DNA from: Spirochaetia bacterium
GTDB taxonomy: Bacteria > Spirochaetota > Spirochaetia > WTKD01 > G963693115
NCBI GenBank assembly: GCA_965218205.1
Contig: OZ244590.1
Coordinates: 840,857-904,856, forward strand
DNA: 64,000 bases
Direction of reading: 5' to 3'
A program made the translations under genes and the position numbers. This document shows, piece after piece, positions 19,877-61,724 of the stretch. Under the pieces are notes generated by a model that was not told the origin of the DNA, searched no databases, and saw only the letters and a list, made by a program, of their open reading frames with translations. Positions within the stretch are counted from its first letter, which is position 1, and each line of letters starts with the position of its first letter.

Positions 19877-19893
19877 AAATAAAGCCCTTTTTT
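19877..19893. repeat. 17-bp direct repeat (AAATAAAGCCCTTTTTT) flanking IS copy A on the left; identical copy at 21108-21124.
   Basis: Exact sequence identity at both IS boundaries. Confidence 0.85.
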
Positions 19894-21107
19894 GTAGTTT
19901 TACCGTTTCGTGTGAACCCTTTTGATAAAATCAGTATACTGCAAAATTTCTATTATGCCAAGTGTGTAATGTTCGTTTAGTAAGGAAAGTATCAACAATA
20001 AGAGGGCGCAGAGTAAGTACACAAGGATCCAGAGAAGGACTTTTTTCTTTGAGCAACAAAGCAGGAGAGCCGTGTTTATAAGAGTTATGGCGTTGATGAT
20101 TAAAGCTATATTGATACTCAGCACTTTTGAGTAAAAAAGTACTGAGAGTAGGATTCTGCATTTTTGCATAGCATTCAGTTTCAATAAGTTTATGAGAAGC
20201 CTCGACATCAGAATTGTAAGTAGGAGAAGCATATGGGATAGTAGTATGGTGTGCCTCGTATGCTGCAAGAGAAGCAACAAAAGCAGATTGTTTAGTACTA
20301 AAAGCCCCTGAGATAAACTCAGAGCCATTATCAGTTTGAATAGTAATAGAGGAAGTATCAACGTGAAAAGAAGCAAGATGAGTAAGCAGATATTCAATAA
20401 ACAAAGCGGTATGAGAAGAGCTTTTTTGAGTGGCAAAGCATATCCATAAAGCCCCTGTAGCAACATCGCGTGCGGTAATTTGATACTTTGGGAGGCAAAA
20501 TTTGCGTAATGAGAAGTATAATTCAGGGATATCGGTAAGATATTTAATATCTACTTGTATTTTTTGACAAAACTGCAGCAGTTGCTTCCATAGGCGTGCC
20601 TCTTGTTTCTTTTCTGCTTTTTGCTTTTTATGTGTCTTAAAAAACCCCATCTTTCTCAGATGCTTAATGATAGTCTTTATGGAATAAGGAATGGCATACT
20701 CTCGTTTTATATGAGAGGCAATACATCGTTGATGATAGTGCTGTAATGTTTCGCATATCTCTTTGAGTTTTAACTGATAGTAAGGTATCATGGTATTAGG
20801 ATGTTCTACTGAAGCAGGACGCCTATCATAGAGCATAGCTTTCGGCTTCTCTTTGTATCTTTGCAGCCATTTGCGTACGGTATTAGGAGATATATGAAAG
20901 ATACGAGCAGTACTTTTGATACCGTGTTCTTTTGCAGAAAGTGCTATAGCTAAGCGTACTTTATGCAGTTCTTTTTGATTTCTTGTATTATAAAGTGTAG
21001 AGTATATCATGTACTCACCCCCTTTTTTTTTATTTTTGTTTGTTATTTCCATGATAGTATAATTACTATCATGGATTTTGGGGGGTCACACGAAACGGTA
21101 AAACTAC
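19894..21107 (-). mobile_element. IS481-family-like insertion sequence, copy A (1214 bp), with imperfect ~24-bp terminal inverted repeats (GTAGTTTTACCGTTTCGTGTGA...).
   Basis: Near-identical over 1214 bp to the element at 58515-59728 in opposite orientation. It has terminal inverted repeats and a single DDE/rve transposase gene. Confidence 0.85.
19931..21010 (-). CDS. IS481-family DDE transposase (rve integrase core with an N-terminal HTH), copy A.
   Basis: HTH (GIKSTARIFHISPNTVRKWLQRY), IQVDIKYL, TDNGSEFIS catalytic core. 359 aa from MIYSTLYN; the ORF track extends it to 21052 through an A9 tract. Confidence 0.85.
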   Translation of the reverse strand: MIYSTLYNTRNQKELHKVRLAIALSAKEHGIKSTARIFHISPNTVRKWLQRYKEKPKAMLYDRRPASVEHPNTMIPYYQLKLKEICETLQHYHQRCIASHIKREYAIPYSIKTIIKHLRKMGFFKTHKKQKAEKKQEARLWKQLLQFCQKIQVDIKYLTDIPELYFSLRKFCLPKYQITARDVATGALWICFATQKSSSHTALFIEYLLTHLASFHVDTSSITIQTDNGSEFISGAFSTKQSAFVASLAAYEAHHTTIPYASPTYNSDVEASHKLIETECYAKMQNPTLSTFLLKSAEYQYSFNHQRHNSYKHGSPALLLKEKSPSLDPCVLTLRPLIVDTFLTKRTLHTWHNRNFAVY

Positions 21108-21124
21108 AAATAAAGCCCTTTTTT
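21108..21124. repeat. 17-bp direct repeat (AAATAAAGCCCTTTTTT), right flank of IS copy A.
   Basis: Identical to 19877-19893. Confidence 0.85.
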
Positions 21125-21167: not shown

Positions 21168-21241
21168 GCCATCTTAGCTCAGCTGGCTAGAGCACGTGAC
21201 TTGTAATCTCGGGGTCGTCAGTTCGAATCTGACAGATGGCT
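21168..21241 (+). tRNA. tRNA-Thr (anticodon UGU).
   Basis: Acceptor GCCATCT/AGATGGC, D-arm GCTC...GAGC, anticodon loop CTTGTAA, T-arm GTCAG-TTCGAAT-CTGAC. Confidence 0.8.
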
Positions 21242-21246
21242 AAACA

Positions 21247-21328
21247 GGGGAGTTTCCCGAGCGGTCAAAGGGGGCAGACTGTAAATCTGTTGGCGTCGCC
21301 TTCGCAGGTTCGAATCCTGCACTCCCCA
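21247..21328 (+). tRNA. tRNA-Tyr (anticodon GUA), class II with a long variable arm.
   Basis: Acceptor GGGGAGT/ACTCCCC, anticodon stem GCAGA/TCTGT with loop CTGTAAA, long variable arm, T-arm GCAGG-TTCGAAT-CCTGC. Confidence 0.85.
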
Positions 21329-36099: not shown

Positions 36100-37797
36100 A
36101 TGAGAAAAACATATCTCCATTTTTTACAAGAAATGGAAAAAGAATTACAAACGATTGATTATGATACCCAAAAGGTACGTGATTTACAACAGTCCATAGA
36201 ATCGAAAGAGCTATTGCTGCCAGTGATAGGGCAGTTTAGCTCTGGGAAAAGTACGCTCCTCAACTCGTTTATGGGGAGAGATATACTGCCAGTGGGCATT
36301 ACGCCTGAGACAGCACTGGCATCAGAGCTGAGATATGCAAGTGATGAAAGAATAGAGGCTATCAAAAAAGATGGGGGAGTCACAACATTTTCAATAGACG
36401 AAATAGAAAAGATAAAGGAAAGAGCAAAAGAGTTTTTGTATCTTACGTTTTTTATCAATAGTAATGTTGTACGTGATATTGCTCCGTTAATCCTTGTTGA
36501 TATGCCAGGCTTTAGTGCAGCCAATGAGTTTCACCAACAGGCTATTATGGAATATCTCAACAAAGGAGTGCATTATATCTGTCTTATCAGTGTTGAAGAG
36601 GGAACTATTCAAAAATCTATGGAAATACAGCTGAGGGATGTTAAAGAGTTTGAAAGAAAATTTTCAGTATTTTTAAGCAAGTGTAATCTCCGTTCTCCAG
36701 AGGAATCAAAGGAAATAGCCACTAATATACAAGAACAGCTCGAAGATAATTTTGACGAACATATCTCTGTTGTGCCAATAGATGACAATGGAGGCGAAAG
36801 TCTTGGTACAGTCATGCAAGAGATACATATTTCTGAGCTTGAGAAGCAAGTATTTTTCTCAGGAGTCGAAGCATTATATAGAGATACTTTAGGGAGCATC
36901 AATACAGAAATAGCATCTCTCACAAAAAGCAAAGAACAGAACGATGATGCCATTACAGCACTCAAAGAAAGTGTAGCAAAGATTGAACAAAAACGTGACC
37001 AGCTTATGAATGATGCTCGCAATGCCTACACAGAGCAACATGCCCGTCAGATTATTGAAGCAGTAGGCTCTGATCTTTCAAGCAGTGTAGAGCAGTTTGT
37101 ATCTATTGCAATGTCAGGAAACTCTGATGAGATGTCACGACAAATATCGGAGGTAGCACGTTCCTCCTTAATTTCAAAAGTGAAAGAAGTTATGACTACC
37201 ATAAGCAATAGTGTTATTGATACATTTCAACTTAGCATACGGGGTATTGAGACGAATGTATCGGGCTATACTTCTAATGTTTCATTGCTTGAGAATCTTA
37301 CAGATACAGTAAAAGGGAGAATGTCAGGTATTGAACAGGGCATGACGAATATGGTAGCTAAACGTCAAGAACAAGAAGCTAAAGGTAGAATGTATAGATC
37401 TATTACAACTGTTCTAGGACTTACAACTAAATTTGTTGTTCCAGCAGTAGAAATTTTAATTATATTTTTGCCAGATATATTGAATAGTCTTTTTAAGAAA
37501 TCGCGAGAAGAAAAACAAAGAGAACAAATCAGATCTACATTGCTCACACAGACATTTCCATCAATAAAAAGAGAAATAGCAACTAAAGTAGAATCGTTAT
37601 TGGAAGAGCAAACAAAAAATGTAATACAAGGCATTGGTACTCAGTATCAGGAATTGTTGGAACAAAAAAGCAAAGAGATTGAAAAAGCAGAGGAAGAAAA
37701 AAATAAAAAAATACAGGATATTGAACAGGTAATAGCTACAAAAAAAGAATGTGTGGCACATATTACCTCTCTTGCAAACGAGAAATTATACGGATAA
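36100..37797 (+). CDS. Bacterial dynamin-like GTPase (LeoA/BDLP-like), paralogue 1.
   Basis: G1 GQFSSGKSTLLNS, G2 region GITPET, G3 DMPGF. A long helical stalk contains a hydrophobic paddle-like segment (ITTVLGLTTKFVVPAVEILIIFLP). Confidence 0.7.
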   Translation: MRKTYLHFLQEMEKELQTIDYDTQKVRDLQQSIESKELLLPVIGQFSSGKSTLLNSFMGRDILPVGITPETALASELRYASDERIEAIKKDGGVTTFSIDEIEKIKERAKEFLYLTFFINSNVVRDIAPLILVDMPGFSAANEFHQQAIMEYLNKGVHYICLISVEEGTIQKSMEIQLRDVKEFERKFSVFLSKCNLRSPEESKEIATNIQEQLEDNFDEHISVVPIDDNGGESLGTVMQEIHISELEKQVFFSGVEALYRDTLGSINTEIASLTKSKEQNDDAITALKESVAKIEQKRDQLMNDARNAYTEQHARQIIEAVGSDLSSSVEQFVSIAMSGNSDEMSRQISEVARSSLISKVKEVMTTISNSVIDTFQLSIRGIETNVSGYTSNVSLLENLTDTVKGRMSGIEQGMTNMVAKRQEQEAKGRMYRSITTVLGLTTKFVVPAVEILIIFLPDILNSLFKKSREEKQREQIRSTLLTQTFPSIKREIATKVESLLEEQTKNVIQGIGTQYQELLEQKSKEIEKAEEEKNKKIQDIEQVIATKKECVAHITSLANEKLYG

Positions 37798-37839
37798 CAA
37801 GAAGAAAAAACAATACTAACTATTAAAAGAGGTATATAT

Positions 37840-40026
37840 ATGAATAAAGAAGAATTATTGACAAAGCTAAAAGGTATTGAAGCTATTGTTAATAGCAATC
37901 ATACTGTTATTGGAAAGGATGCAGAATATCTAGCAGATGACTGTGGCATAGAAGAATCATCGAAAATACAAGATGCTATGAAAGATACTGAATACAAAGG
38001 GCGTCTATTAAAAATTGGTATCATAGGCAGGGTAAAGGCAGGAAAATCTTCATTATTAAATTCACTTATCTTTGAAGGAAAGGATATTCTCCCAAAGGCA
38101 GCCACTCCCATGACTGCCAATCTCACTGTGCTGTCCTATGGTGAGAGGAATGCAGCAGAAATAGAATATTTTAGTTCTGAGGATAGAGAAGATATTAAAA
38201 AGAAACATGACATATACGAAAAAAGAATGAATGATTTAATAGAACAATACCAACAGGAACATAAAGAAAAGCAAAAAGAAGAGCCAGCTGACAAAGAAAG
38301 GATAGAACGCAGAGCAAAGCGAGAATTAAAAGGCAGTATTGAAGAAGCCTCGTATGATCAGTACAAGCGTATGCAGAAGTCAGGGGTAGATCCAACTCGC
38401 CTTGAAGAGAAAACAACGCTAGAATCAAATACAATGAAGGAGCTAGCCAATGAGCTAATAGACTATGTCTCGGCTGAAGGAACATACATGCCATTTACAA
38501 GAAGTATCCGTGTGGCATTGCCGAATGAATTTCTCAAAGACATAGAAATTGTTGATACGCCTGGATTGAATGATCCCGTAGTATCAAGAGAAGAAAGAAC
38601 AAGGGAGCTATTACGGTACTGTGATGTTATTTTTATTGTGAGTCCTTCGGGGCAGTTTATGACCGAACAAGACATAGAATTATTACAGCGTATATCGACA
38701 AAAGAGGGACTGAGAGAGCTGTATGTGGTAGCAAGTCAGGTTGACACACAGCTATTTGGGAGCGAAAAAAAAGCTACAGTCATTGATGCTATTGATGGAC
38801 TTAGCAACATACTTGCTACAAGATTGCAGGAGGTAATTTCAAAACTAAAAGAACATTCCCCTGAGGTAGGAGATAAATTGAATAAGCTCATTGAAGATAA
38901 TCGTGAGCGTATTATATGCTGTTCGGGGATAGCACAATCCATTCTTTTGCGTATGTATGACTCTGGCACAATAACGGATGAAGGACAAACAACAGTATGG
39001 AATAATCTCAAACATCATTATCCAAATAATTTTTCTGATGGAGACAAAACTACATCGGAAGAAAGTCTAAAAGTACTTGCAAACATTACAAAAGTGGAAG
39101 AAAAAATACGATATGTACGCTCTCAAAAAGATAAGATTTTTGAAGACAAGCAGAAAGATTATATACATACAAAATCACAAGCACTGAGTAGCTATCAACA
39201 AGCACTCCTTGATGCAGTAGAGAAAAAAATACAAGAACTTCAAGAAGCTGATATAGATGAGCTGAAAAAGAAAAAAGAAAAACTACAAAAAATCAAAAGT
39301 ACAGGGGAAGGACAGCTTAGTGATACATTTAATAGTTCGGTACGCGATCTATATGTGTGTATGAAGAAGAAACTCAGTGATGGAATAGAAGTGCTATTTG
39401 GAGACACATCAAAAAGAGTAGGAGATGCTGAAGGATCTGTTACTGAAACATATACTACGGGATGGTGGTTGTGGAAAAAAGATCATCATAGAGATGTGAC
39501 AACAGTACGAGCAGGAGATATACGAGATAAGCTGGAAACTATAACATCAAAGATAAAATTAAAGATAGAAGATATAGCAAATGAGAAAATAAAAGCATGG
39601 AAGAGTAAAATACGAAAGGATATTTTATATTCTATTAGGGATGTAGTGGATGATAAATACTTGAATGATTTGACAATTAAAAGTAGTTTTCATGTTATTT
39701 TCTCAAAAATTGTAGACCCTAATATATCTTTTGAAGATAATAGTCTTAATTCTACTCTACAACAATCAGAGATACTTAAAGGATATGAAGCAAAGGAGTA
39801 TATGAAGGAAGCTAGCAACTATATAAATACATTTAAGAGTTCTGTCATTAAAAGAATAGAACAATATACAGAGCAACTAAAAAATACACTTTCCAAATAT
39901 GAAATTGGAACAGAAATATTTGCAAACATTGATGAGACTATCACTGCTTTTGAAAAAGATATAGAAAATAAAAAGGCGATATTAGCGCAATATGACACAA
40001 TAGAAAAAAATTTAAAGGAATTATAA
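37840..40026 (+). CDS. Bacterial dynamin-like GTPase, paralogue 2 (728 aa).
   Basis: G1 GRVKAGKSSLLNSLIF, G2 TPMTANLTVL, G3 DTPGLND; long coiled-coil stalk. Confidence 0.7.
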   Translation: MNKEELLTKLKGIEAIVNSNHTVIGKDAEYLADDCGIEESSKIQDAMKDTEYKGRLLKIGIIGRVKAGKSSLLNSLIFEGKDILPKAATPMTANLTVLSYGERNAAEIEYFSSEDREDIKKKHDIYEKRMNDLIEQYQQEHKEKQKEEPADKERIERRAKRELKGSIEEASYDQYKRMQKSGVDPTRLEEKTTLESNTMKELANELIDYVSAEGTYMPFTRSIRVALPNEFLKDIEIVDTPGLNDPVVSREERTRELLRYCDVIFIVSPSGQFMTEQDIELLQRISTKEGLRELYVVASQVDTQLFGSEKKATVIDAIDGLSNILATRLQEVISKLKEHSPEVGDKLNKLIEDNRERIICCSGIAQSILLRMYDSGTITDEGQTTVWNNLKHHYPNNFSDGDKTTSEESLKVLANITKVEEKIRYVRSQKDKIFEDKQKDYIHTKSQALSSYQQALLDAVEKKIQELQEADIDELKKKKEKLQKIKSTGEGQLSDTFNSSVRDLYVCMKKKLSDGIEVLFGDTSKRVGDAEGSVTETYTTGWWLWKKDHHRDVTTVRAGDIRDKLETITSKIKLKIEDIANEKIKAWKSKIRKDILYSIRDVVDDKYLNDLTIKSSFHVIFSKIVDPNISFEDNSLNSTLQQSEILKGYEAKEYMKEASNYINTFKSSVIKRIEQYTEQLKNTLSKYEIGTEIFANIDETITAFEKDIENKKAILAQYDTIEKNLKEL

Positions 40027-40029
40027 AAC

Positions 40030-41814
40030 ATGGACAATAAGAAACTACAAGGACTAGAAGAGAAATATACACAAGCAAAGGATAAACTAGACTTAGTAAG
40101 TGCTATTCTTAGTGCAGAACTCCCTAGCAATGCTGGATTGATTGAATTTAAGCGGTTATTACGTGAAGATTTTTTTAACTTTGCTAATGAAGAATCTTCT
40201 GTAGCAGAAGAGGCTGCATGTGTGTTAAGATTACAGAACATTGAAAAAGAGCTAGAACTTATGAGCAATTATTCTGCCATTATAGGAAAAACACGTATTG
40301 CTGTTGCAGGGGGCTTTAGCAGTGGAAAATCTAGTTTCTTAAATGGAATTATCCCTGATACAAACATTAAGCTCCCTACGGGAGTAAATCCTGTAACGGC
40401 AATTCCTACCTATATCATATCTCAACAATCAAAGAGTGCTGATACTACTATTACTGCTTTTTCCACAAAGGGAGGAAATACGCCTATCTCTAGTGAAATA
40501 TATAATAAATTATCCCATGATTTTATCAATTCACTAGGGTTTAATCTAAAAGATATTCTTGCGTTTATGGCAATAACCATTTCAGAAAAAAGATATGAGC
40601 ATATTTGCTTTATTGATACCCCTGGAATTTCAAATGATGAGTCTGATAAAAAAACAGCATCTGAGTTTGTGGAGCAATCTGATATAGTACTGTGGTGTAT
40701 TGATATTGAAAGAGGTACTGTGCCAAAAACAGATCTTGAATTTATAAGGGAACATTTAAAAGAAAAAACAATCTATGTAGTGATGAGCAAGGCTGATATA
40801 AAATCCTCTGAGGAAATTGAAGATATACTTGATGAGGTGGAAGAAATGCTCCACGATGAAGATATTGCCATAGAGGGAATCTCAGCCTGTAGTTTTCTTA
40901 ATGGCAAAGAGAAGACAACATCAAGAAAAATGAGTATATACGATTTTCTCACATTGTATAACAAAAACAGTACAAAGCATGAAAAAGAAACACTCATTGC
41001 TCGCGTAGAGGAGGTTTGTGATATATACGATAAGGCTATCAATGAAAGTATCAAATTTAGCAAAGAGCATAAGGAAGAATTACGCTCTATTGGGCTTGAT
41101 GTACTAGCATTAGGAGAGGAGGATGAGGAGGAATTAGCTAGAAAGAGGTTAAAGGCATTCAAGATGAAATTCGGAGAGGCAAGTAAGGCATTCAAGGTAT
41201 ACCAAGTGAAATTAAGAGAGACATTTGAGGCATTCAAGGTGAAAGTTGGAGAGGCATCAGGGGTGAAAGTTGGAGAGGTATTAGAATCAGCATTCAAGAT
41301 GAAATGGGGAGAGGCATTCGGACATGGGTTAGAGGCATTCGGAGAGGTGGTATCTGAGATAAAATTAAAAGAGGCATTTGAAGTATTAATAGGGGCATCT
41401 GAGGCATTAGGAGAGGCATTAGATGTATTTGAAGAGGTGGCATCTGACGCGAAATTAGAAGAGGCATCTGAGGCATTCGGAAAGGCATTTCAGGTATTTA
41501 AAGGAGCATTAGAGGCATTCGGAGATGCATCTGAGGCATTCGGAGAGGTGGTATCTGAGACGAAATTAGAAGATGCATTTGAAGAGGTGGCATTAGAGGC
41601 ATTAGGAGATGCATTAGAGAGATTTGGTGTGAAATTAAGCGAGATAGAAAAAAGCGGCAGTAACATCAGCATAAGCGATAAACTAAGAGAGATGCAGCAA
41701 AAATTTGATTATAAGAAACATCAAGGGCAATTAAAGAAATTAGCTACTATCAGAACACAAATGATAGGTGCTATACACGATACATTTAAGGCGAGTAATA
41801 GCAAAAAAAGATAA
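40030..41814 (+). CDS. Bacterial dynamin-like GTPase, paralogue 3, with a C-terminal EAFG/EALG tandem-repeat region.
   Basis: G1 GGFSSGKSSFLNGII, G3 DTPGISND, G4 VMSKAD. The start is 4 nt after the previous gene's stop. Confidence 0.7.
   Translation: MDNKKLQGLEEKYTQAKDKLDLVSAILSAELPSNAGLIEFKRLLREDFFNFANEESSVAEEAACVLRLQNIEKELELMSNYSAIIGKTRIAVAGGFSSGKSSFLNGIIPDTNIKLPTGVNPVTAIPTYIISQQSKSADTTITAFSTKGGNTPISSEIYNKLSHDFINSLGFNLKDILAFMAITISEKRYEHICFIDTPGISNDESDKKTASEFVEQSDIVLWCIDIERGTVPKTDLEFIREHLKEKTIYVVMSKADIKSSEEIEDILDEVEEMLHDEDIAIEGISACSFLNGKEKTTSRKMSIYDFLTLYNKNSTKHEKETLIARVEEVCDIYDKAINESIKFSKEHKEELRSIGLDVLALGEEDEEELARKRLKAFKMKFGEASKAFKVYQVKLRETFEAFKVKVGEASGVKVGEVLESAFKMKWGEAFGHGLEAFGEVVSEIKLKEAFEVLIGASEALGEALDVFEEVASDAKLEEASEAFGKAFQVFKGALEAFGDASEAFGEVVSETKLEDAFEEVALEALGDALERFGVKLSEIEKSGSNISISDKLREMQQKFDYKKHQGQLKKLATIRTQMIGAIHDTFKASNSKKR
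41150..41640 (+). repeat. Degenerate in-frame tandem repeat array (GAGGCATTCGGAGA-like units) inside the dynamin-like paralogue 3 CDS.
   Basis: Repeated DNA units encode repeated peptides such as EAFGEVVSE(I/T)KL(K/E)(E/D)AFE, EASEAFG and EALGDAL. Spurious minus-strand ORFs in the same interval are by-products. Confidence 0.75.
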
Positions 41815-55458: not shown

Positions 55459-55629
55459 ATTACTCCTAATGTATATTAGTTTATATAACTTTTTATAGTA
55501 TACTAACTTTTGAAAAATTAAGTCAACTGTAGAATACAGATTTTTGTATTATTGTTATATTGTAAAGAAATTTAGTATATCTATAGTGGATGTGATACAA
55601 TAGTAATAGTATAAATAGGAGGAAAACAT

Positions 55630-58044
55630 ATGGCAGAAAGTAAAAGCATAGGACAATTACAAAAAGACGCAGAGCAATTTTTTAAGGATAAAAAATATGA
55701 TAAATGTATAGAGGTTTGTACAAAGATTATTAGTAGGGATGATGCAACAGAAGCTGATAAAGCAAGTGCGTATTTTAACAGAGGAAAAGCGAAAGATAGA
55801 CAAGGAAAGTATGAAGAAGCGATAGCTGATTATGATAAAGCGATAAAGTTATATCATTTTTTTGTTCCATATAAAACTCCTTATACTCTAGCTGATTACG
55901 ACAAAGTGATAAAGTTATATCCAAAATATGTAAATGCATACATCAACAGAGGAAACACAAAAGATAGGCAAGGAAAATATGAAGAAGCAATAAAAGATTA
56001 TGACAAAGCAATAGAGCTAGATCCACAAAATGCAATAGCATACAGTAATAGAGGACTTATGGAAGATAGGCAAAGAAGGTATAGAAAAGCGATAGCTTAT
56101 TACACTACAGCGATAGAGAAAGATCCAAAATATGTAAATGCATACATCAACAGAGGAATTACGAAACGGAAACGAAAAAAATATAAAGAAGCGATAGCTG
56201 ATTACACTACAGCGATAGAGCTAGATCCAAAATATGTAAATGCATACATCAACAGAGGAAATGCAAAATATAGTCAAGGAAAATATGAAGAAGCAATAAA
56301 AGATTATAACAAAGCAATAAAGCTAGATGAACAAAATGAAACAGCATACAACAACAGAGGCAATGCAAAATATAGTCAAAAAAATTATAAAGAAGCGATA
56401 AAAGATTATGATAAAGCGATAGATTTAGATTCAAAATATACAACAGCATATATAAACGGAGGAAATGCACAATATAGGCAAGAAGATTATAAGAAGGCGG
56501 AGGATTACTACACTAGAGCGATAAATACAAATAAAAAAAATGCAACATTATACAACAGCAGAGGAAATGCGAAATATAAACAAAAAAATTATAAAAAAGC
56601 GATAAAAGAATATGACAAAGCGATAAAGAAAAATCCAAAATATGTAGAAGCATATTACAATAAAGGTTATACAAATTTTATGCTAGGAAATTATGAGGAG
56701 GCGATAAAAGATTACGATGAAGCGATAGGTATAGATGGAAAAAAAGCAGAAGCACACTATTATAAAGGAACTGCGAATTTTATGTTAGGAAATTATGAGG
56801 AAGCGATAGATGATTATGATAAAGCGAAAAAGTGTAAAGAAGATTTTGCATCAGCAAAAGCCGATTATTCCATATTAAAATATTTATTATATACTAAAAG
56901 TGATGATTCAAAAGTATCAAAGGTATCAAAGTTTATTGAGAACTTGAATAAGGCCTTACGAATAGGTATAGCTGAAAAGTATAAGGAATCTAATATTAGT
57001 GATAATAAAAAATATTGTAATAAAAAATATATATTTTGTATATTTCAAAATGTAGTAAAGATATTAGATGAGTTAAAAGTAAAAGTAAATAAGAAGAGCA
57101 ATAAAGAAGAGTATCTTTCGCATACTACTCGTTTATCTGTATTGAAACAGCTTTTACCCATACCACCCACTCAAAAAGAAGATCTGTCCTCCCAAAGTGT
57201 AGCTTCAATATTTCGATTGTACCATATTGTGTATTCAAATGATCCGACTGAAGGAAAGATTCTCTTTAAGAAATTAAGTATTGACGATGAAACAGAAATC
57301 CCTTTCTATGTAATGATAGCGAGCTTTTCTAAAGGTGTCATCTCAGGTGATGACTTCTCAGAATTAGATACTATTCCTATATGGCACATGTATGGAGATG
57401 ATGCAAAAGGGATATCTCTATTATTTAAGACAACAGATATAGCCTCTGATGAAACAAGACATATTGGTAACCCTGTACAGAATTTGAATATATTAGAACA
57501 AGATCATACACAGGATATTGATGGTTCTGAAGTTAAGAGAGTATTGGAAAATATACACCAGATACAAAATATAGATGACAATCCTCTTTTGAAGCCAATA
57601 CTCTATAAGGTTCATTATACTGATGTAAAAAAACCTCTAAAGGATAGCGACAAAGGAAAAATAGTTGGTTATCTCAGAGATATACAAAATAGGCTTAAAG
57701 AGATAGAAAAAAAGGAAGACGAGAAGATATACAAAAAAACTTTAGAATTATTATCTGGATTGAGGTATCTTATTAAGGATAAGAGATATGAATATGAAAA
57801 TGAATATCGCTTAGTGTGTTTTCTTACACTTGATAGTATACAATATGATGAAAAAGATCCTGAAAACGATGCAATAAACCGTATGTATGTAGAAGAGGAT
57901 ATCATAGCAAAATTGGATAGCATAATAGTAGGAGCTAAAGTTCCTCCAGCAAAAGTGCTTGAAATAAAATATTTACTAAGAAAGTGTGATAAGACTAAAG
58001 ACAGAAAAATTAAAGTAATTCCAAGCAGTATTCCCTACCGCTAA
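55630..58044 (+). CDS. TPR-repeat protein fused to a DUF2971-like C-terminal domain.
   Basis: About 12 tandem 34-aa TPR units (AYINRGNAKYSQGKYEEAIKDYDKAIELDPKYVNA), then a C-terminal domain with YSNDPTEG and IWHMYGDDAKG resembling the DUF2971 N-D-P-x-E and M-W-s-h-Y motifs. Confidence 0.55.
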   Translation: MAESKSIGQLQKDAEQFFKDKKYDKCIEVCTKIISRDDATEADKASAYFNRGKAKDRQGKYEEAIADYDKAIKLYHFFVPYKTPYTLADYDKVIKLYPKYVNAYINRGNTKDRQGKYEEAIKDYDKAIELDPQNAIAYSNRGLMEDRQRRYRKAIAYYTTAIEKDPKYVNAYINRGITKRKRKKYKEAIADYTTAIELDPKYVNAYINRGNAKYSQGKYEEAIKDYNKAIKLDEQNETAYNNRGNAKYSQKNYKEAIKDYDKAIDLDSKYTTAYINGGNAQYRQEDYKKAEDYYTRAINTNKKNATLYNSRGNAKYKQKNYKKAIKEYDKAIKKNPKYVEAYYNKGYTNFMLGNYEEAIKDYDEAIGIDGKKAEAHYYKGTANFMLGNYEEAIDDYDKAKKCKEDFASAKADYSILKYLLYTKSDDSKVSKVSKFIENLNKALRIGIAEKYKESNISDNKKYCNKKYIFCIFQNVVKILDELKVKVNKKSNKEEYLSHTTRLSVLKQLLPIPPTQKEDLSSQSVASIFRLYHIVYSNDPTEGKILFKKLSIDDETEIPFYVMIASFSKGVISGDDFSELDTIPIWHMYGDDAKGISLLFKTTDIASDETRHIGNPVQNLNILEQDHTQDIDGSEVKRVLENIHQIQNIDDNPLLKPILYKVHYTDVKKPLKDSDKGKIVGYLRDIQNRLKEIEKKEDEKIYKKTLELLSGLRYLIKDKRYEYENEYRLVCFLTLDSIQYDEKDPENDAINRMYVEEDIIAKLDSIIVGAKVPPAKVLEIKYLLRKCDKTKDRKIKVIPSSIPYR
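55690..56860 (+). repeat. Near-identical tandem ~102-bp DNA repeats (TPR units) within the CDS.
   Basis: Blocks such as CCAAAATATGTAAATGCATACATCAACAGAGGAAA recur at ~55921, ~56121 and ~56221 with very few mismatches. Confidence 0.8.
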
Positions 58045-58498
58045 ACAGTAGAGAGTACGCAGTATATATACTAATCAAGCTGGTATTTTCATAGCATATC
58101 TCTACTGAAGTCTTTGTTTTTTTTGTTTATTTATACATTTGCATAAGACAGGCACAAGACGAAAAAACAAAATATGAACAACTATAGGTGCAAGTATTAT
58201 TAGTAAAAACCACCAGTTAAAGTCAGATAAGAAAGAAGAAATCAATAAGGACAGAAAAAAACCAATAAAAAGTTCAGCAGTAAAATATTCTCTCTTTTTT
58301 ATTACTGTTTGGTATACTTTATAGGTTTTTAGTTTTTCATATTCTTCTTTAAAGCATTTAAAATGGCAGAAGCCATAGAATAGTTGTTCTTTTTCTATCT
58401 TTTTTATAACTGCAAATTTTGCATCATTTAAACGCTTATATGAATGTACATTGCAAAGCCATAGTATAGAAACACATAATCCAAGAATACTTACGAAA

Positions 58499-58514
58499 AT
58501 AATAGATAGAGTTG
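58499..58514. repeat. 16-bp direct repeat (ATAATAGATAGAGTTG), left flank of IS copy B; identical copy at 59729-59744.
   Basis: Exact sequence identity at both IS boundaries. The repeat lies inside the disrupted ORF, consistent with a target-site duplication. Confidence 0.85.
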
Positions 58515-59728
58515 TGTACTTTTACCATCTCGTATGAACCCCCAAAATCCATGACAGTAATTATACTATCATGGAAATAACAAACAAAAATAAAAAAAAG
58601 GGGGTGAGTACATGATATACTCTACACTTTATAATACAAGAAATCAAAAAGAATTGCATAAAGTACGCTTAGCTATAGCACTTTCTGCAAAAGAACACGG
58701 CATCAAAAGTACTGCTCGTATCTTTCATATATCTCCTAATACCGTACGCAAATGGCTGCAAAGATACAAAGAGAAGCCGAAAGCTATGCTCTATGATAGG
58801 CGTCCTGCTTCAGTAGAACATCCTAATACCATGATACCTTACTATCAGTTAAAACTCAAAGAGATATGCGAAACATTACAGCACTATCATCAACGATGTA
58901 TTGCCTCTCATATACAACGAGAGTATGCCATTCCTTATTCCATAAAGACTATCATTAAGCATCTGAGAAAGATGGGGTTTTTTAAGACACATAAAAAGCG
59001 AAAAGCAGAAAAGAAACAAGAGGCTCGCCTATGGAAACAACTGCTGCAGTTTTGTCAAAAAATACAAGTAGATATTAAATATCTTACCGATATCCCTGAA
59101 TTATACTTCTCATTACGCAAGTTTTGCCTCCCAAAGTATCAAATTACCGCACGCGATGTCGCAACAGGGGCTTTATGGATATGCTTTGCTACTCAAAAAA
59201 GCTCTTCTCATACCGCTTTGTTTATTGAATATCTGCTTACTCATCTTGCTTCTTTTCACGTTGATACTTCCTCTATTACTATTCAAACTGATAATGGCTC
59301 TGAGTTTATCTCAGGGGCTTTTAGTACTAAACAGTCTGCTTTTGTTGCTTCTCTTGCAGCATACGAGGCACACCATACTACTATCCCATATGCTTCTCCT
59401 ACTTACAATTCTGATGTCGAGGCTTCTCATAAACTTATTGAAACTGAATGCTATGCAAAAATGCAGAATCCTACTCTCAGTACTTTTTTACTCAAAAGTG
59501 CTGAGTATCAATATAGCTTTAATCATCAACGCCATAACTCTTATAAACACGGCTCTCCTGCTTTGTTGCTCAAAGAAAAAAGTCCTTCTCTGGATCCTTG
59601 TGTACTTACTCTGCGACCTCTTATTGTTGATACTTTCCTTACTAAACGAACATTACACACTTGGCATAATAGAAATTTTGCAGTATACTGATTTTATCAA
59701 AAGGGTTCACACGAAACGGTAAAACTCC
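58515..59728 (+). mobile_element. IS481-family-like insertion sequence, copy B (1214 bp), inverted relative to copy A.
   Basis: Same length as copy A and near-identical to it, differing by a few SNPs and an A8 versus A9 tract. Terminal inverted repeats GTACTTTTACCATCTCGTATGAACCCCC / GGGTTCACACGAAACGGTAAAACTCC. Confidence 0.9.
58612..59691 (+). CDS. IS481-family DDE transposase, copy B (359 aa).
   Basis: Identical to the copy A transposase from MIYSTLYN onward, except for two substitutions (IQREY versus IKREY; KKRKAEKK versus KKQKAEKK). Confidence 0.9.
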   Translation: MIYSTLYNTRNQKELHKVRLAIALSAKEHGIKSTARIFHISPNTVRKWLQRYKEKPKAMLYDRRPASVEHPNTMIPYYQLKLKEICETLQHYHQRCIASHIQREYAIPYSIKTIIKHLRKMGFFKTHKKRKAEKKQEARLWKQLLQFCQKIQVDIKYLTDIPELYFSLRKFCLPKYQITARDVATGALWICFATQKSSSHTALFIEYLLTHLASFHVDTSSITIQTDNGSEFISGAFSTKQSAFVASLAAYEAHHTTIPYASPTYNSDVEASHKLIETECYAKMQNPTLSTFLLKSAEYQYSFNHQRHNSYKHGSPALLLKEKSPSLDPCVLTLRPLIVDTFLTKRTLHTWHNRNFAVY

Positions 59729-59744
59729 ATAATAGATAGAGTTG
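59729..59744. repeat. 16-bp direct repeat (ATAATAGATAGAGTTG), right flank of IS copy B.
   Basis: Identical to 58499-58514. Confidence 0.85.
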
Positions 59745-60113
59745 CTAATTGTTCCCATGTAGGAGTATTATTAGAATTAGATAGAAGTTCAAATATGCAT
59801 TGAAATGTTAATTTTTTTGTAAAACTACCTTTGTTTTTCAATACATAAATAACAATCCCTCCAATAGAAGTAAGTATAAGGGAGCAAATAGAAAAATAAA
59901 AGTTATTACTTCGCAGTCTTCTATCGCTAGTATCCTCTGCTGTTTTTAAGTATATTTTGTATATTTCTAGTAAATGTTTTTGATATTTATCATTATCCAT
60001 ACCATAATTATATATCGTTTAGCAGTTTCCGTTACATTTTTGTTACAACATGCTTTACATATTTTTTATTCTATGGTATTATCTTATTATGGGAATAATA
60101 AAGGGGGACAGTA

Positions 60114-61724
60114 ATGATTATTCGCGGTATAGAATCTATTGGTGAGCAGGAAGGCACGCCGTCAGCACATGAGCAACATAGTCGAGAAGTAAATACAAGC
60201 CATACCCATGGAGCTTTTTCAGGAAACATGTCTGAAAGAGAAAATGGTGTCTCAGGCACATCACAAGGAGCAACTGCTCCTGCTAATACCATTGTAAATA
60301 ATAGCACTATTGATACCTCTGTGTCAAACTCCGAGTTATTTTATAAGAAACGCGTTATTGGGGGAATAGAGAGTGCATTTAGTCCCACAAAGATAGCCGT
60401 TATTGGTGTTGGTGGAGGCGGGGTAAATGCAGTAAGCAGTATGGTAGACTTAGAATTAGATGGCATAGACCTGTGGGCTGCAAATACCGATGCCCAAACC
60501 TTAAGCGACTGTCCCGTGAGTAATGTCATATTGCTTGGTTCTAAATCCTGTAATGGTCTCGGAGTAGGAGGAGATCCACAACGGGGAGCCGAAGCTGTGT
60601 ATGAGATGCAAGAGGATATTAGTGGCGTATTAAAAAACTATGACATGATATTTCTTGCCACAGGCTTAGGAGGAGGAACAGGCTCTGGAGCTATTCCTGT
60701 ACTTGCAAAAATAGCACGGGATAGTGGCGTACTTGTTGTCTCTATTGTTACTATGCCATTTCTCTACGAAGGACAGAAAAGACAAAGCAATGCCGAAAAC
60801 AGCTTGGAAGAACTAGAAGAATTTACAGACGCACTGATAATAGTGCCTAATAACAGCCTTATCACTACCAGTGCTTCTCGCTCTGATGTGTTTGTGGAAG
60901 ATAGCTTTCATACTGCCAATAAGATTTTATCAGATACCGTCAGCTCCATTACTAATATTCTCACAACAAGAGGACGTGTCAATATTGATTTTGCAGATAT
61001 TAAAAGCTGTATTCAAAATTCTGGTCTTATTTCGGTTGGCATTGGAGAATCGAATATTGAAGAAAGTCATGGAGGCAATGCTCACAGAGCCACTGAAATA
61101 GCCCTTACAAATAAATTGCTGTCCGAAGAGAACGCACAGGTACTCTCGTATGCGGACAATATTATTGTAAATGTTGTACTAGGAAAGAGCTGTCCTATGC
61201 ATGATTATGCCGCTATCACAGATATGATTATTTCACGTACCTCTGTTAAGCCAAGCAATATAAAAACAGGACATCGTTTTGAATCTACCTGGGACCATAA
61301 AGTGCAAGTTACCATCATTGCAGCATCCAGCTTAAAAAGTCATGGAAAAAAAATAGTCAATCCTAACAGAAGCATGAGCGATGCAAGGAGCATGTCCGTA
61401 CATGATACAAGTAGACATGCCACTGTCAATCATGTGCCTACCTCTGTAGCTCCAGCACATGATACTGTGTACTCACACGCGTACACTGAAGAACAAGCAG
61501 CACATAACAATAGTCCTCCATATCCCTACGATAGAGAAAAAAGAGACATCAGTTTACAAGGCATGTACGAAACCTCTGACTCAGATCAAAAATACATAGA
61601 CAGCGATGTGTTTCGTTCGTTGATAAATCAGCCCATGAGAGATGTCAATGAAATTTTACAGGAAGAACTTGACACAATGAAAAAGACAACACCAGTACAA
61701 CAGTATTCTGATATCATTCCATAA
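60114..61724 (+). CDS. ftsZ: Cell-division GTPase FtsZ with a ~95-aa N-terminal extension and a long C-terminal linker.
   Basis: Tubulin/FtsZ core: IAVIGVGGGGVNAV, NTDAQTL, the GGGTGSG signature, and T7-loop-like NIDFADIK. Confidence 0.9.
   Translation: MIIRGIESIGEQEGTPSAHEQHSREVNTSHTHGAFSGNMSERENGVSGTSQGATAPANTIVNNSTIDTSVSNSELFYKKRVIGGIESAFSPTKIAVIGVGGGGVNAVSSMVDLELDGIDLWAANTDAQTLSDCPVSNVILLGSKSCNGLGVGGDPQRGAEAVYEMQEDISGVLKNYDMIFLATGLGGGTGSGAIPVLAKIARDSGVLVVSIVTMPFLYEGQKRQSNAENSLEELEEFTDALIIVPNNSLITTSASRSDVFVEDSFHTANKILSDTVSSITNILTTRGRVNIDFADIKSCIQNSGLISVGIGESNIEESHGGNAHRATEIALTNKLLSEENAQVLSYADNIIVNVVLGKSCPMHDYAAITDMIISRTSVKPSNIKTGHRFESTWDHKVQVTIIAASSLKSHGKKIVNPNRSMSDARSMSVHDTSRHATVNHVPTSVAPAHDTVYSHAYTEEQAAHNNSPPYPYDREKRDISLQGMYETSDSDQKYIDSDVFRSLINQPMRDVNEILQEELDTMKKTTPVQQYSDIIP

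What the first reader, a model, noticed from the sequence alone, without database searches (positions are those of the whole stretch)
58102..60000. IS copy B interrupts a ~228-aa multi-TM protein gene convergent with the TPR-DUF2971 gene; the gene is reconstructable in silico
The minus-strand ORF beginning at 60000 runs into the IS. Deleting 58515-59728 and one 16-bp repeat yields an uninterrupted frame through a stop at 58102, encoding a protein with an N-terminal soluble segment and 3-4 TM helices. This marks a recent insertional inactivation. The intact protein could be a membrane effector partnered with the adjacent DUF2971-containing gene, although that link is speculative.
Basis: seen in the sequence. 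Interest (0 to 1): 0.5.

Follow-up and report, generated by a model that had tools for sequence, protein, structure and literature searches.

The report
IS-disrupted orphan Thoeris-type membrane protein gene
A 1.2-kb insertion sequence has split a small membrane-protein gene whose relatives usually sit beside a TIR immune-signalling gene; this is an ordinary knock-out of a probable phage-defence effector that here lacks its usual partner.

Summary
An IS481-like element (58515-59728, intact 359-aa transposase) is flanked by an exact 16-bp duplication. Removing it and one repeat restores a minus-strand ORF from 60000 to 58102 of 222 aa, not about 228, with four hydrophobic segments.

The restored protein is a clear member of Pfam PF24838 (8xMP, "octameric membrane protein"; 67 bits, match spanning the junction). 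A related metagenome contig carries the intact gene in the same place, between ftsZ and TPR/DUF2971 genes.

Across 78 other genomes, 59 have a ThsB-type TIR gene within 300 bp of the 8xMP gene. This pairing matches the untested "3TM" candidate Thoeris effector class in a 2025 preprint. The window copy is an orphan: no TIR gene in 64 kb.

The proposed DUF2971 partnership is not general. No DUF2971 was found near 79 other 8xMP genes, and no 8xMP near 24 other DUF2971 genes. However, in one genome (L083) the closest relatives of both genes are neighbours, with a TIR gene between them.

Verdict: an ordinary IS inactivation of a new member of a known, functionally untested family. Interest is low to moderate.

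The parts
59745..60000 (-). 5' part of the split 8xMP gene: codons 1-85 and the first base of codon 86, encoding the N-terminal cytoplasmic helix, TM1 and the outer loop
   Evidence: This half alone matches the family profile at E=2.7e-18. It is 95% identical in DNA to L001.
59729..59744 (.). Right copy of the 16-bp target-site duplication ATAATAGATAGAGTTG, which encodes ATLSII at the start of TM2
   Evidence: Exact repeat; position within the protein.
58515..59728 (+). IS copy B, a distant IS481-like insertion sequence of 1214 bp. Inverted repeats lie at 58515-58543 and 59703-59728.
   Evidence: Read from the sequence. About 98.4% identical to copy A. TGT terminus, single DDE ORF, 15-16-bp duplication.
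58612..59691 (+). Transposase gene, 359 aa, with HTH and rve integrase-core domains; intact
   Evidence: Pfam HTH_23/HTH_28/rve. NCBIfam IS481 at E=7.9e-31 and 107.6 bits, below the 224-bit cutoff. About 25% identical to annotated IS481 transposases. Differs from copy A at 2 residues.
58499..58514 (.). Left copy of the 16-bp target-site duplication
58102..58514 (-). 3' part of the split 8xMP gene, including the stop codon: TM2, the conserved W..SYKRLNxAKFxVIxxIE cytoplasmic segment, TM3 and a lineage-specific TM4
   Evidence: This half alone matches the family profile at E=1.5e-20. Conserved residues retained.
55630..58044 (+). Convergent neighbour: an 804-aa protein with about ten TPR repeats and a C-terminal DUF2971 domain
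   Evidence: Pfam TPR_1 at E=9e-91; DUF2971 at 25.6 bits against a 22-bit cutoff. Repeat families D1 and D2.
19893..21107 (-). IS copy A, the same element in the opposite orientation. It sits in a palindromic AAAAAAGGGCTTTATT site just upstream of two tRNA genes and has its own 15-16-bp duplication.
60114..61724 (+). ftsZ, transcribed divergently from the split gene; 113 bp separate the two start codons
   Evidence: ORF list. Tubulin/FtsZ Pfam family on the L001 orthologue.

Best explanation
A chromosomal gene for an 8xMP-family inner-membrane protein (222 aa) has been inactivated by transposition of a 1.2-kb IS481-like element. The protein has an N-terminal cytoplasmic helix, TM1, an outer loop, TM2, a conserved charged cytoplasmic segment, TM3 and an extra TM4.

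The element landed in codons 86-91, at the start of TM2, and duplicated 15-16 bp. This separates the N-terminal helix and TM1 from TM2 and the invariant SYKRLN..KF segment. What remains is a 97-aa stub, so the allele is null. This part is shown directly by the sequence.

The function is inferred from family context. 8xMP proteins are most likely signal-activated, oligomerising, membrane-disrupting effectors of Thoeris-like abortive-infection systems. The upstream ThsB-type TIR protein would sense phage and make an ADP-ribose-derived signal. That signal would bind the conserved basic and aromatic cytoplasmic face (Y14, S25, R27, R28, N32, Y111, N115, K118) and open the assembly.

In this lineage the gene is an orphan. 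It has no TIR partner within 64 kb and sits tail-to-tail with a TPR-DUF2971 gene in a variable, IS-prone segment beside ftsZ.
For: Disruption:
- Exact duplication and clean frame restoration.
- Pfam 8xMP at 67 bits against a 30-bit cutoff, spanning the junction; each half matches the family profile separately.
- Intact syntenic homologue in L001.
- Second IS copy with its own duplication.

Family context:
- 3862 family representatives; all 121 aligned members pass PF24838.
- A ThsB_TIR gene lies within 300 bp in 59 of 78 loci; 43 are immediately upstream on the same strand.
- The partner TIRs are 43-70% identical, and one is 100% identical, to TIRs labelled '3TM' effector in Table S1 of bioRxiv 10.64898/2025.12.03.692087. 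They are 62% identical to a validated type IV Thoeris TIR.
- That preprint shows other TM effectors (DUF2270, SLATT) work in this way.

This copy:
- It keeps 21 of 25 near-invariant residues.
- The conserved core shows dN/dS of 0.28-0.38 against L001.
- The AF2 model has pLDDT 84 and is all-helical.
Against: - No TIR gene lies in the window or in L001, so the defining partner of a Thoeris system is missing here.
- The '3TM'/8xMP class was not tested experimentally in the preprint.
- PADLOC (2023) has no model for it.
- No solved structure or specific fold relative was found. Pore formation, the octameric state and ligand binding are therefore all inference.
- Four otherwise near-invariant positions are changed in this lineage: L135C, P136H, W144Y and P165A.
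- The dN/dS estimates rest on few substitutions.
Confidence: 0.72

Rival explanations
1. The 8xMP protein and the adjacent TPR-DUF2971 protein form a functional defence pair. The TPR domain would sense infection. The DUF2971 domain, predicted to be ADP-ribosyltransferase-like in the lactococcal Abi protein Aristaios, would use NAD+. The membrane protein would execute the response, with DUF2971 replacing the missing TIR.
For: - The adjacency is kept in L001.
- In L083 the closest known relatives of both proteins are neighbours on one strand: TPR 514 aa, DUF2971 385 aa (39% identical), ThsB_TIR, then 8xMP (38% identical). That 8xMP is the best non-lineage match among 238 members.
- DUF2971 occurs in a validated single-gene antiphage protein with a predicted ART fold (PMC11381338).
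Against: - The orientation here is convergent, with 57 bp between the stop codons.
- No DUF2971 lies within +-10 kb of 79 other 8xMP genes; the profile is lineage-specific, so its sensitivity is limited.
- It is not among the common Pfam families of the immediate neighbours either.
- No 8xMP or TIR lies near 22 distant DUF2971 loci, nor in L082.
- L084 has DUF2971 directly upstream of ftsZ without 8xMP.
- In L083 a TIR is present, so DUF2971 is not needed as the signal source there.
Confidence: 0.1
2. The orphan 8xMP gene was already functionally dead before the IS arrived. It would be a leftover of a Thoeris-like operon that lost its TIR gene, and the insertion is one more step in neutral decay.
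For: - There is no TIR in 64 kb.
- Four near-invariant positions are altered in this lineage.
- The locus is mosaic and IS-prone: an IS1595 disrupts a paralogous TPR-DUF2971 gene in L001, and identity to L001 drops from 95% to about 75% inside the gene.
Against: - The ORF is intact in L001, and apart from the IS it is intact here too.
- 21 of 25 conserved residues are retained.
- dN/dS is 0.28-0.38 in the conserved core.
- About 15 of 75 assessable 8xMP loci in other genomes also lack an adjacent TIR, so orphans are a recurrent state.
- A TIR could be encoded elsewhere in the genome.
Confidence: 0.13
3. The protein is a housekeeping envelope or cell-division accessory factor linked to the divergently transcribed ftsZ, and is unrelated to defence.
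For: It shares a 113-bp divergent promoter region with ftsZ, in a core chromosomal region that also carries ZapA, L20/L35, XerD and DprA.
Against: - It is absent from the same position in L084, where DUF2971 is followed directly by ftsZ.
- Across bacteria and archaea the family's context is TIR genes and restriction or Abi genes, not division genes.
- The cell tolerates its disruption.
Confidence: 0.03

Closest known systems
'3TM' candidate Thoeris effector class (TIR + 3TM operons) in Table S1 and Fig. 1C of bioRxiv 10.64898/2025.12.03.692087, equivalent to Pfam PF24838 8xMP
   Same: It is the same protein family by Pfam score. Family members lie directly downstream of ThsB-type TIR genes. 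One partner TIR (L081) is 100% identical to a TIR listed as '3TM', and others are 43-70% identical.
   Different: The window copy has no TIR partner, an enlarged outer loop and a fourth TM helix, and it is disrupted by an IS. The class itself has not been tested experimentally.
Validated transmembrane Thoeris effectors: ThsF (DUF2270, type V) and ThsH (SLATT, type VII)
   Same: These are small multi-TM proteins encoded next to a ThsB TIR. They are predicted to oligomerise into membrane-spanning assemblies with basic inter-protomer pockets for cADPR-type signals. Seven of 121 8xMP members give faint sub-threshold SLATT_1 or SLATT_5 hits.
   Different: No significant sequence relationship to either family was found: E is 0.03 or worse for SLATT, and there is no DUF2270 hit. 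The signal molecule and oligomeric state of 8xMP are unknown.
IS481 family insertion sequences
   Same: About 1.2 kb, a single HTH+rve DDE transposase, TGT termini and a long target duplication. The best NCBIfam hit is IS481, and the best plasmid matches are annotated IS481.
   Different: It is only about 25% identical to annotated members and scores below the NCBIfam cutoff (107.6 against 224 bits). The 15-16-bp duplication is at or just above the family's usual upper limit; that limit is quoted from my recollection of ISfinder and was not checked here.
Aristaios, a DUF2971 single-gene antiphage protein from lactococcal plasmids (PMC11381338)
   Same: The neighbouring gene's C-terminal domain passes the Pfam DUF2971 threshold. 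Aristaios shows that a DUF2971 protein can confer abortive infection.
   Different: The window protein has a roughly 470-aa TPR array fused in front and is chromosomal, beside ftsZ. Its activity was not tested, and its similarity to Aristaios itself was not measured.

Membership tests
Pfam PF24838 (8xMP, octameric membrane protein family) | Score above the family's gathering threshold (30 bits) | tested here: met
   67 bits, E=2e-18, residues 11-180 matching profile positions 1-135 of 136.
Pfam PF24838 (8xMP, octameric membrane protein family) | Conserved motifs: N-terminal LLExYK..(x)..S.RR...N.F, then G...W....SYK.LN..KF.VI...E | tested here: met
   21 of 25 near-invariant columns are retained. 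The differences are L135C, P136H, W144Y and P165A, and positions 135, 136 and 165 are also changed in L001's protein.
Pfam PF24838 (8xMP, octameric membrane protein family) | Three-TM architecture of about 150-190 aa | tested here: inconclusive
   TM1-3 are present, but there is an extra C-terminal TM4 and a loop about 25 aa longer, giving 222 aa.
Pfam PF24838 (8xMP, octameric membrane protein family) | Homo-octameric assembly | not testable with these tools
   Only a monomer model could be made. No solved relative exists.
Thoeris-like TIR signalling defence system | A TIR-domain (ThsB-type) gene adjacent to the effector gene | tested here: not met
   No hit to a ThsB profile in the window's 64 kb or in L001. 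This is met for the family at large, in 59 of 78 loci.
Thoeris-like TIR signalling defence system | Effector activated by a TIR-made ADPR-derived signal; protection against phage | not testable with these tools
   The '3TM' class was not among the systems tested in the preprint.
IS481 family | Transposase reaches the NCBIfam NF033577 cutoff (224 bits) | tested here: not met
   107.6 bits, although IS481 is the best-scoring IS family at E=7.9e-31.
IS481 family | Single DDE (rve) ORF with an N-terminal HTH, terminal inverted repeats starting TGT, and direct target repeats | tested here: met
   Inverted repeats match at 22 of 30 in copy B and are near-perfect in copy A. A 15-16-bp duplication flanks both copies.
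DUF2971 (PF11185), neighbouring gene | Score above the gathering threshold (22 bits) | tested here: met
   25.6 bits, E=3.2e-5, residues 585-728.

The most novel reading that the evidence does not exclude
In this lineage the TPR-DUF2971 protein, a predicted NAD+-using ART-like enzyme behind a TPR sensor, has taken over the TIR's role as signal generator for the 8xMP membrane effector. Alternatively, TPR-DUF2971, TIR and 8xMP together form a larger composite system, as arranged in L083. Either reading would mean a Thoeris-like pathway whose signal is not made by a TIR domain.
Probability: 0.07. Interest if true: 0.65.

Novelty: new member of a known kind. Interest (0 to 1): 0.3.

Why it matters
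As an event it is routine: an IS knocks out a non-essential accessory gene. It is useful in three modest ways.

1. It assigns the broken ORF to 8xMP, a large family of about 3,900 representatives. Its genomic context marks it as a probable but untested Thoeris effector class.

2. It documents a TIR-less, four-TM variant kept intact in a close relative. That bears on whether such effectors can act, or be tolerated, without a cognate TIR.

3. It gives a concrete candidate locus (L083: TPR, DUF2971, TIR, 8xMP) for testing whether DUF2971 proteins cooperate with TIR-effector pairs.

Tried and rejected
- **Origin of the Pfam name.** Literature searches for '8xMP', 'PF24838' and 'octameric membrane protein' found nothing relevant, so the origin of the name could not be traced.
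- **Defence and phage libraries.** PADLOC and PHROGs have no hit for the membrane protein.
- **Solved structures.** PDB sequence searches with the single sequence and with a 121-sequence profile gave nothing significant; the best was MSL10 at E=0.16.
- **First AF2 model.** The model from 6 sequences was poor (pLDDT 66) and was replaced by one from 121 sequences (pLDDT 84).
- **Source organism.** The exact FtsZ and transposase proteins are not on record. The spliced protein could not be looked up. The organism therefore stays unidentified: 34% GC, core chromosomal genes.
- **Close relatives in metagenomes.** A JGI metagenome scan found none.
- **SLATT relationship.** Considered, but only sub-threshold hits support it, so it is not claimed.
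- **Terminator between the convergent genes.** None was detected, and promoter-like sites are no more frequent than in shuffled sequence.

Full report
**1. The observation**

The sequence at 58499-59744 shows an exact 16-bp direct repeat, ATAATAGATAGAGTTG, bracketing a 1214-bp element. The element begins TGTACTTTTACC... and ends ...GGTAAAACTCC, giving imperfect terminal inverted repeats (22 of 30).

It carries one intact 359-aa ORF on the + strand (58612-59691) with HTH and rve (DDE integrase-core) domains. Its best IS-family match is IS481: E=7.9e-31 and 107.6 bits, below the curated 224-bit cutoff. It is only about 25% identical to annotated IS481 transposases on plasmids.

A second copy lies inverted at about 19893-21107. 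It differs at 19 bases and one indel, and by 2 amino acids in the transposase. It is flanked by its own 15-16-bp duplication, AAAAAAGGGCTTTATT. One shared A makes the duplication either 15 or 16 bp.

Deleting 58515-59744 restores a single minus-strand ORF from ATG 60000 to the stop at 58102. Deleting the IS without one repeat breaks the frame.

**2. What the restored protein is**

It matches Pfam PF24838 (8xMP, "Octameric membrane protein family") at 67 bits against a 30-bit cutoff. The match covers residues 11-180 and so spans the junction. Each half on its own matches a profile built from 121 family members, at E=2.7e-18 for 59710-60018 and E=1.5e-20 for 58105-58521.

Hydropathy and an AF2 model (121-sequence alignment, pLDDT 84, pTM 0.72) give this layout:
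- a long N-terminal helix whose last third is TM1 (about 34-54);
- a loop of about 25 residues;
- TM2 (about 85-107), continuing into a charged cytoplasmic helix that carries the family's W..SYKRLN.AKF.VI..IE motif;
- TM3 (about 163-182);
- a lineage-specific TM4 (about 186-210).

The duplicated 16 bp encode ATLSII, codons 86-91, at the start of TM2. The insertion therefore leaves a 97-aa stub (helix 1 and TM1 plus 7 IS-encoded residues) and removes everything conserved downstream.

**3. Relatives with the intact gene**

A word-index search found a 231-aa homologue, P0001, at 70% identity. It lies on a 34-kb metagenome contig (L001) in the same position, between ftsZ and TPR/DUF2971 genes. The flanks are about 95% identical in DNA.

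Identity drops inside the gene, after about codon 57. It is about 75% through the gene's 3' half and the TPR-DUF2971 gene. The outer loop and C-terminal TM are essentially unalignable, while the conserved core is kept: dN/dS is 0.38 for codons 1-53 and 0.28 for 96-175, on few substitutions.

L001 also carries a second TPR-DUF2971 paralogue broken by an IS1595-type element. This is a mosaic, IS-prone segment in an otherwise core chromosomal region that encodes FtsK, DnaG, RpoD, RNase P RNA, AroDE, pyruvate kinase, L20/L35, ZapA, FtsZ, XerD and DprA.

**4. The family and its context**

A profile search of 1.84 billion representatives found 3862 members. A scan of one genome per species found 210 loci across bacteria and archaea, of which 80 were fetched. 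Typical members are 150-190 aa.

In 43 of 78 assessable loci, the gene immediately upstream on the same strand encodes a 125-170-aa protein, often overlapping by 4 bp. Forty-three of the 49 small upstream proteins scanned match Pfam ThsB_TIR. Counting either side, 59 of 78 loci have a ThsB-like TIR ORF within 300 bp. A few others have STING or CAP12-type TIR neighbours, and restriction or Abi genes are common nearby.

A 2025 preprint surveying TIR signalling systems (bioRxiv 10.64898/2025.12.03.692087) lists "3TM" as a putative, untested effector class. One of its "3TM" TIRs is 100% identical to the TIR upstream of the 8xMP gene in L081. Others are 43-70% identical to my partner TIRs, and a validated type IV Thoeris TIR is 62% identical.

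8xMP is therefore, very probably, that "3TM" class. The same preprint shows experimentally that other small TM proteins next to ThsB (DUF2270/ThsF and SLATT/ThsH) are signal-activated effectors.

By analogy, 8xMP is most likely a TIR-signal-gated, oligomeric membrane-disrupting effector. This step is inference. No structure or assay exists, and PDB sequence and fold searches gave only generic helical matches.

**5. This copy is an orphan**

No ThsB-like TIR is encoded anywhere in the 64-kb window or in L001. Upstream of the gene there are only 113 bp before the divergent ftsZ.

Orphans are not rare. Eighteen of the 78 loci lack a TIR, and three of those are too close to a contig end to judge.

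The window protein retains 21 of 25 near-invariant residues. It differs from the family at L135C, P136H, W144Y and P165A; three of these four changes are shared with P0001, which has D at position 144.

**6. The proposed link to DUF2971**

The 804-aa neighbour has about ten TPR repeats and a C-terminal DUF2971 domain just above Pfam's threshold. DUF2971 occurs in Aristaios, a validated lactococcal single-gene abortive-infection protein with a predicted ADP-ribosyltransferase-like fold (PMC11381338). The neighbour is therefore itself a plausible defence gene.

Evidence against a general partnership:
- No DUF2971 of this type lies within +-10 kb of the 79 other 8xMP loci. The profile is lineage-specific, so its sensitivity is limited.
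- It is not among the frequent Pfam families of the +-1 neighbours.
- None of 22 more distant DUF2971 loci from metagenomes has an 8xMP or TIR gene.
- L082 has TPR, a 614-aa protein and DUF2971 next to type III restriction-modification genes, without 8xMP.
- In L084, DUF2971 sits 133 bp upstream of an ftsZ 49% identical to the window's, with no 8xMP between them.
- The orientation here is convergent.

One point in favour comes from L083. Its genes run on one strand in this order: TPR (514 aa), DUF2971 (385 aa, 39% identical, with the same SSIPYR C-terminus), ThsB_TIR (137 aa), 8xMP (156 aa), then GmrSD, all inside a type III restriction-modification and HicAB island. That 8xMP is the closest non-lineage relative of the window protein among 238 members in hand, at 85 bits against 74 for the next.

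The two genes therefore appear to have travelled together, and the window lineage lacks the TIR that lies between them in L083. This fits co-inheritance within a defence island. It does not show functional coupling, but it does not exclude it either.

**7. How recent is the insertion?**

The duplication is perfect, and the 669 bp of split coding sequence carry no stop or frameshift. However, the two IS copies differ at about 1.6% of positions. Copy B's left inverted repeat has 5 changes in 24 bp relative to copy A, whose repeats are near-perfect. The two copies are therefore not products of a single very recent burst. "Recent" is plausible but not demonstrated.

**8. Verdict**

This is a real and ordinary IS-mediated knock-out. 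The target is a new four-TM, TIR-less member of the known Pfam family 8xMP, whose context marks it as a probable but untested Thoeris-type membrane effector.

"Membrane effector" is reasonable. "Partner of DUF2971" is not supported as a rule, and the family's regular partner is a TIR protein that is absent here.

Noticed in passing
window 19893-21107 (flanks 19877-19892 and 21108-21124); tRNA genes at 21168-21241 and 21247-21328: IS copy A is inserted in a palindromic, terminator-like site (AAAAAAGGGCTTTATT) about 60 bp upstream of two tRNA genes. Its inverted repeats are near-perfect, whereas copy B's left repeat carries 5 substitutions in 24 bp, so copy B may be less mobile.
   Followed up: partly
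window 59661-59733 (+ strand): Two sigma-70-like promoter matches lie at the right end of the IS: TTGGCA-17-TATACT inside it, and TTCACA-16-CATAAT across the IS/duplication junction. Both point towards ftsZ (60114), so the insertion could alter ftsZ transcription. Promoter-like sites are no more frequent here than in shuffled sequence, so this is only a lead.
   Followed up: no
window 55539-59831 compared with L001: DNA identity to the relative drops from about 95% in the flanks to about 75% across the TPR-DUF2971 gene and the 3' two-thirds of the 8xMP gene. One boundary lies inside the 8xMP gene, near codon 57. The outer loop (dN/dS about 1.4) and the C-terminal TM are replaced. This suggests allelic replacement or diversifying selection at the locus.
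   Followed up: partly
L083 6460-12148: One genome has, on one strand, TPR (514 aa), DUF2971 (385 aa, overlapping the TPR gene by 4 bp), ThsB_TIR (137 aa), 8xMP (156 aa) and GmrSD, within a type III restriction-modification and HicAB island. It could be a composite system or simply a tight defence island.
   Followed up: partly
L084 155-2770: A DUF2971 gene sits 133 bp upstream of ftsZ in a bacterium whose FtsZ is only 49% identical to the window's. The DUF2971-ftsZ adjacency is therefore older than the 8xMP insertion between them, which is odd for a presumed mobile defence gene.
   Followed up: partly
L001 8486-11935: The relative carries a second TPR-DUF2971 paralogue that appears split by an IS1595-type transposase gene, leaving TPR fragments on the far side. 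The locus attracts different IS families in different strains.
   Followed up: no
window 55764-56907: The TPR array is visible at the DNA level as about ten tandem 102-bp units at 61-79% identity, which could allow repeat-number variation.
   Followed up: no
window 36100-41814, especially 41310-41629: Three consecutive large ORFs (565, 728 and 594 aa) have no NCBIfam match at E<=1e-10. The last contains 21-bp periodic repeats encoding E-A-F/L-G-like heptads.
   Followed up: no
window 60114-61724: FtsZ is unusually long at 536 aa. It has an N-terminal extension of about 77 residues and a long, low-complexity C-terminal tail compared with the 444-aa homologue in L084.
   Followed up: no
L058 7549-9948 and L063 8189-9793: The two spirochaete MAG loci in the 8xMP set (Leptospiraceae and Salinispira) also lack a ThsB-type TIR neighbour. 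In L058 the upstream 800-aa protein has only a faint nucleoside 2-deoxyribosyltransferase-like hit near its N-terminus.
   Followed up: partly
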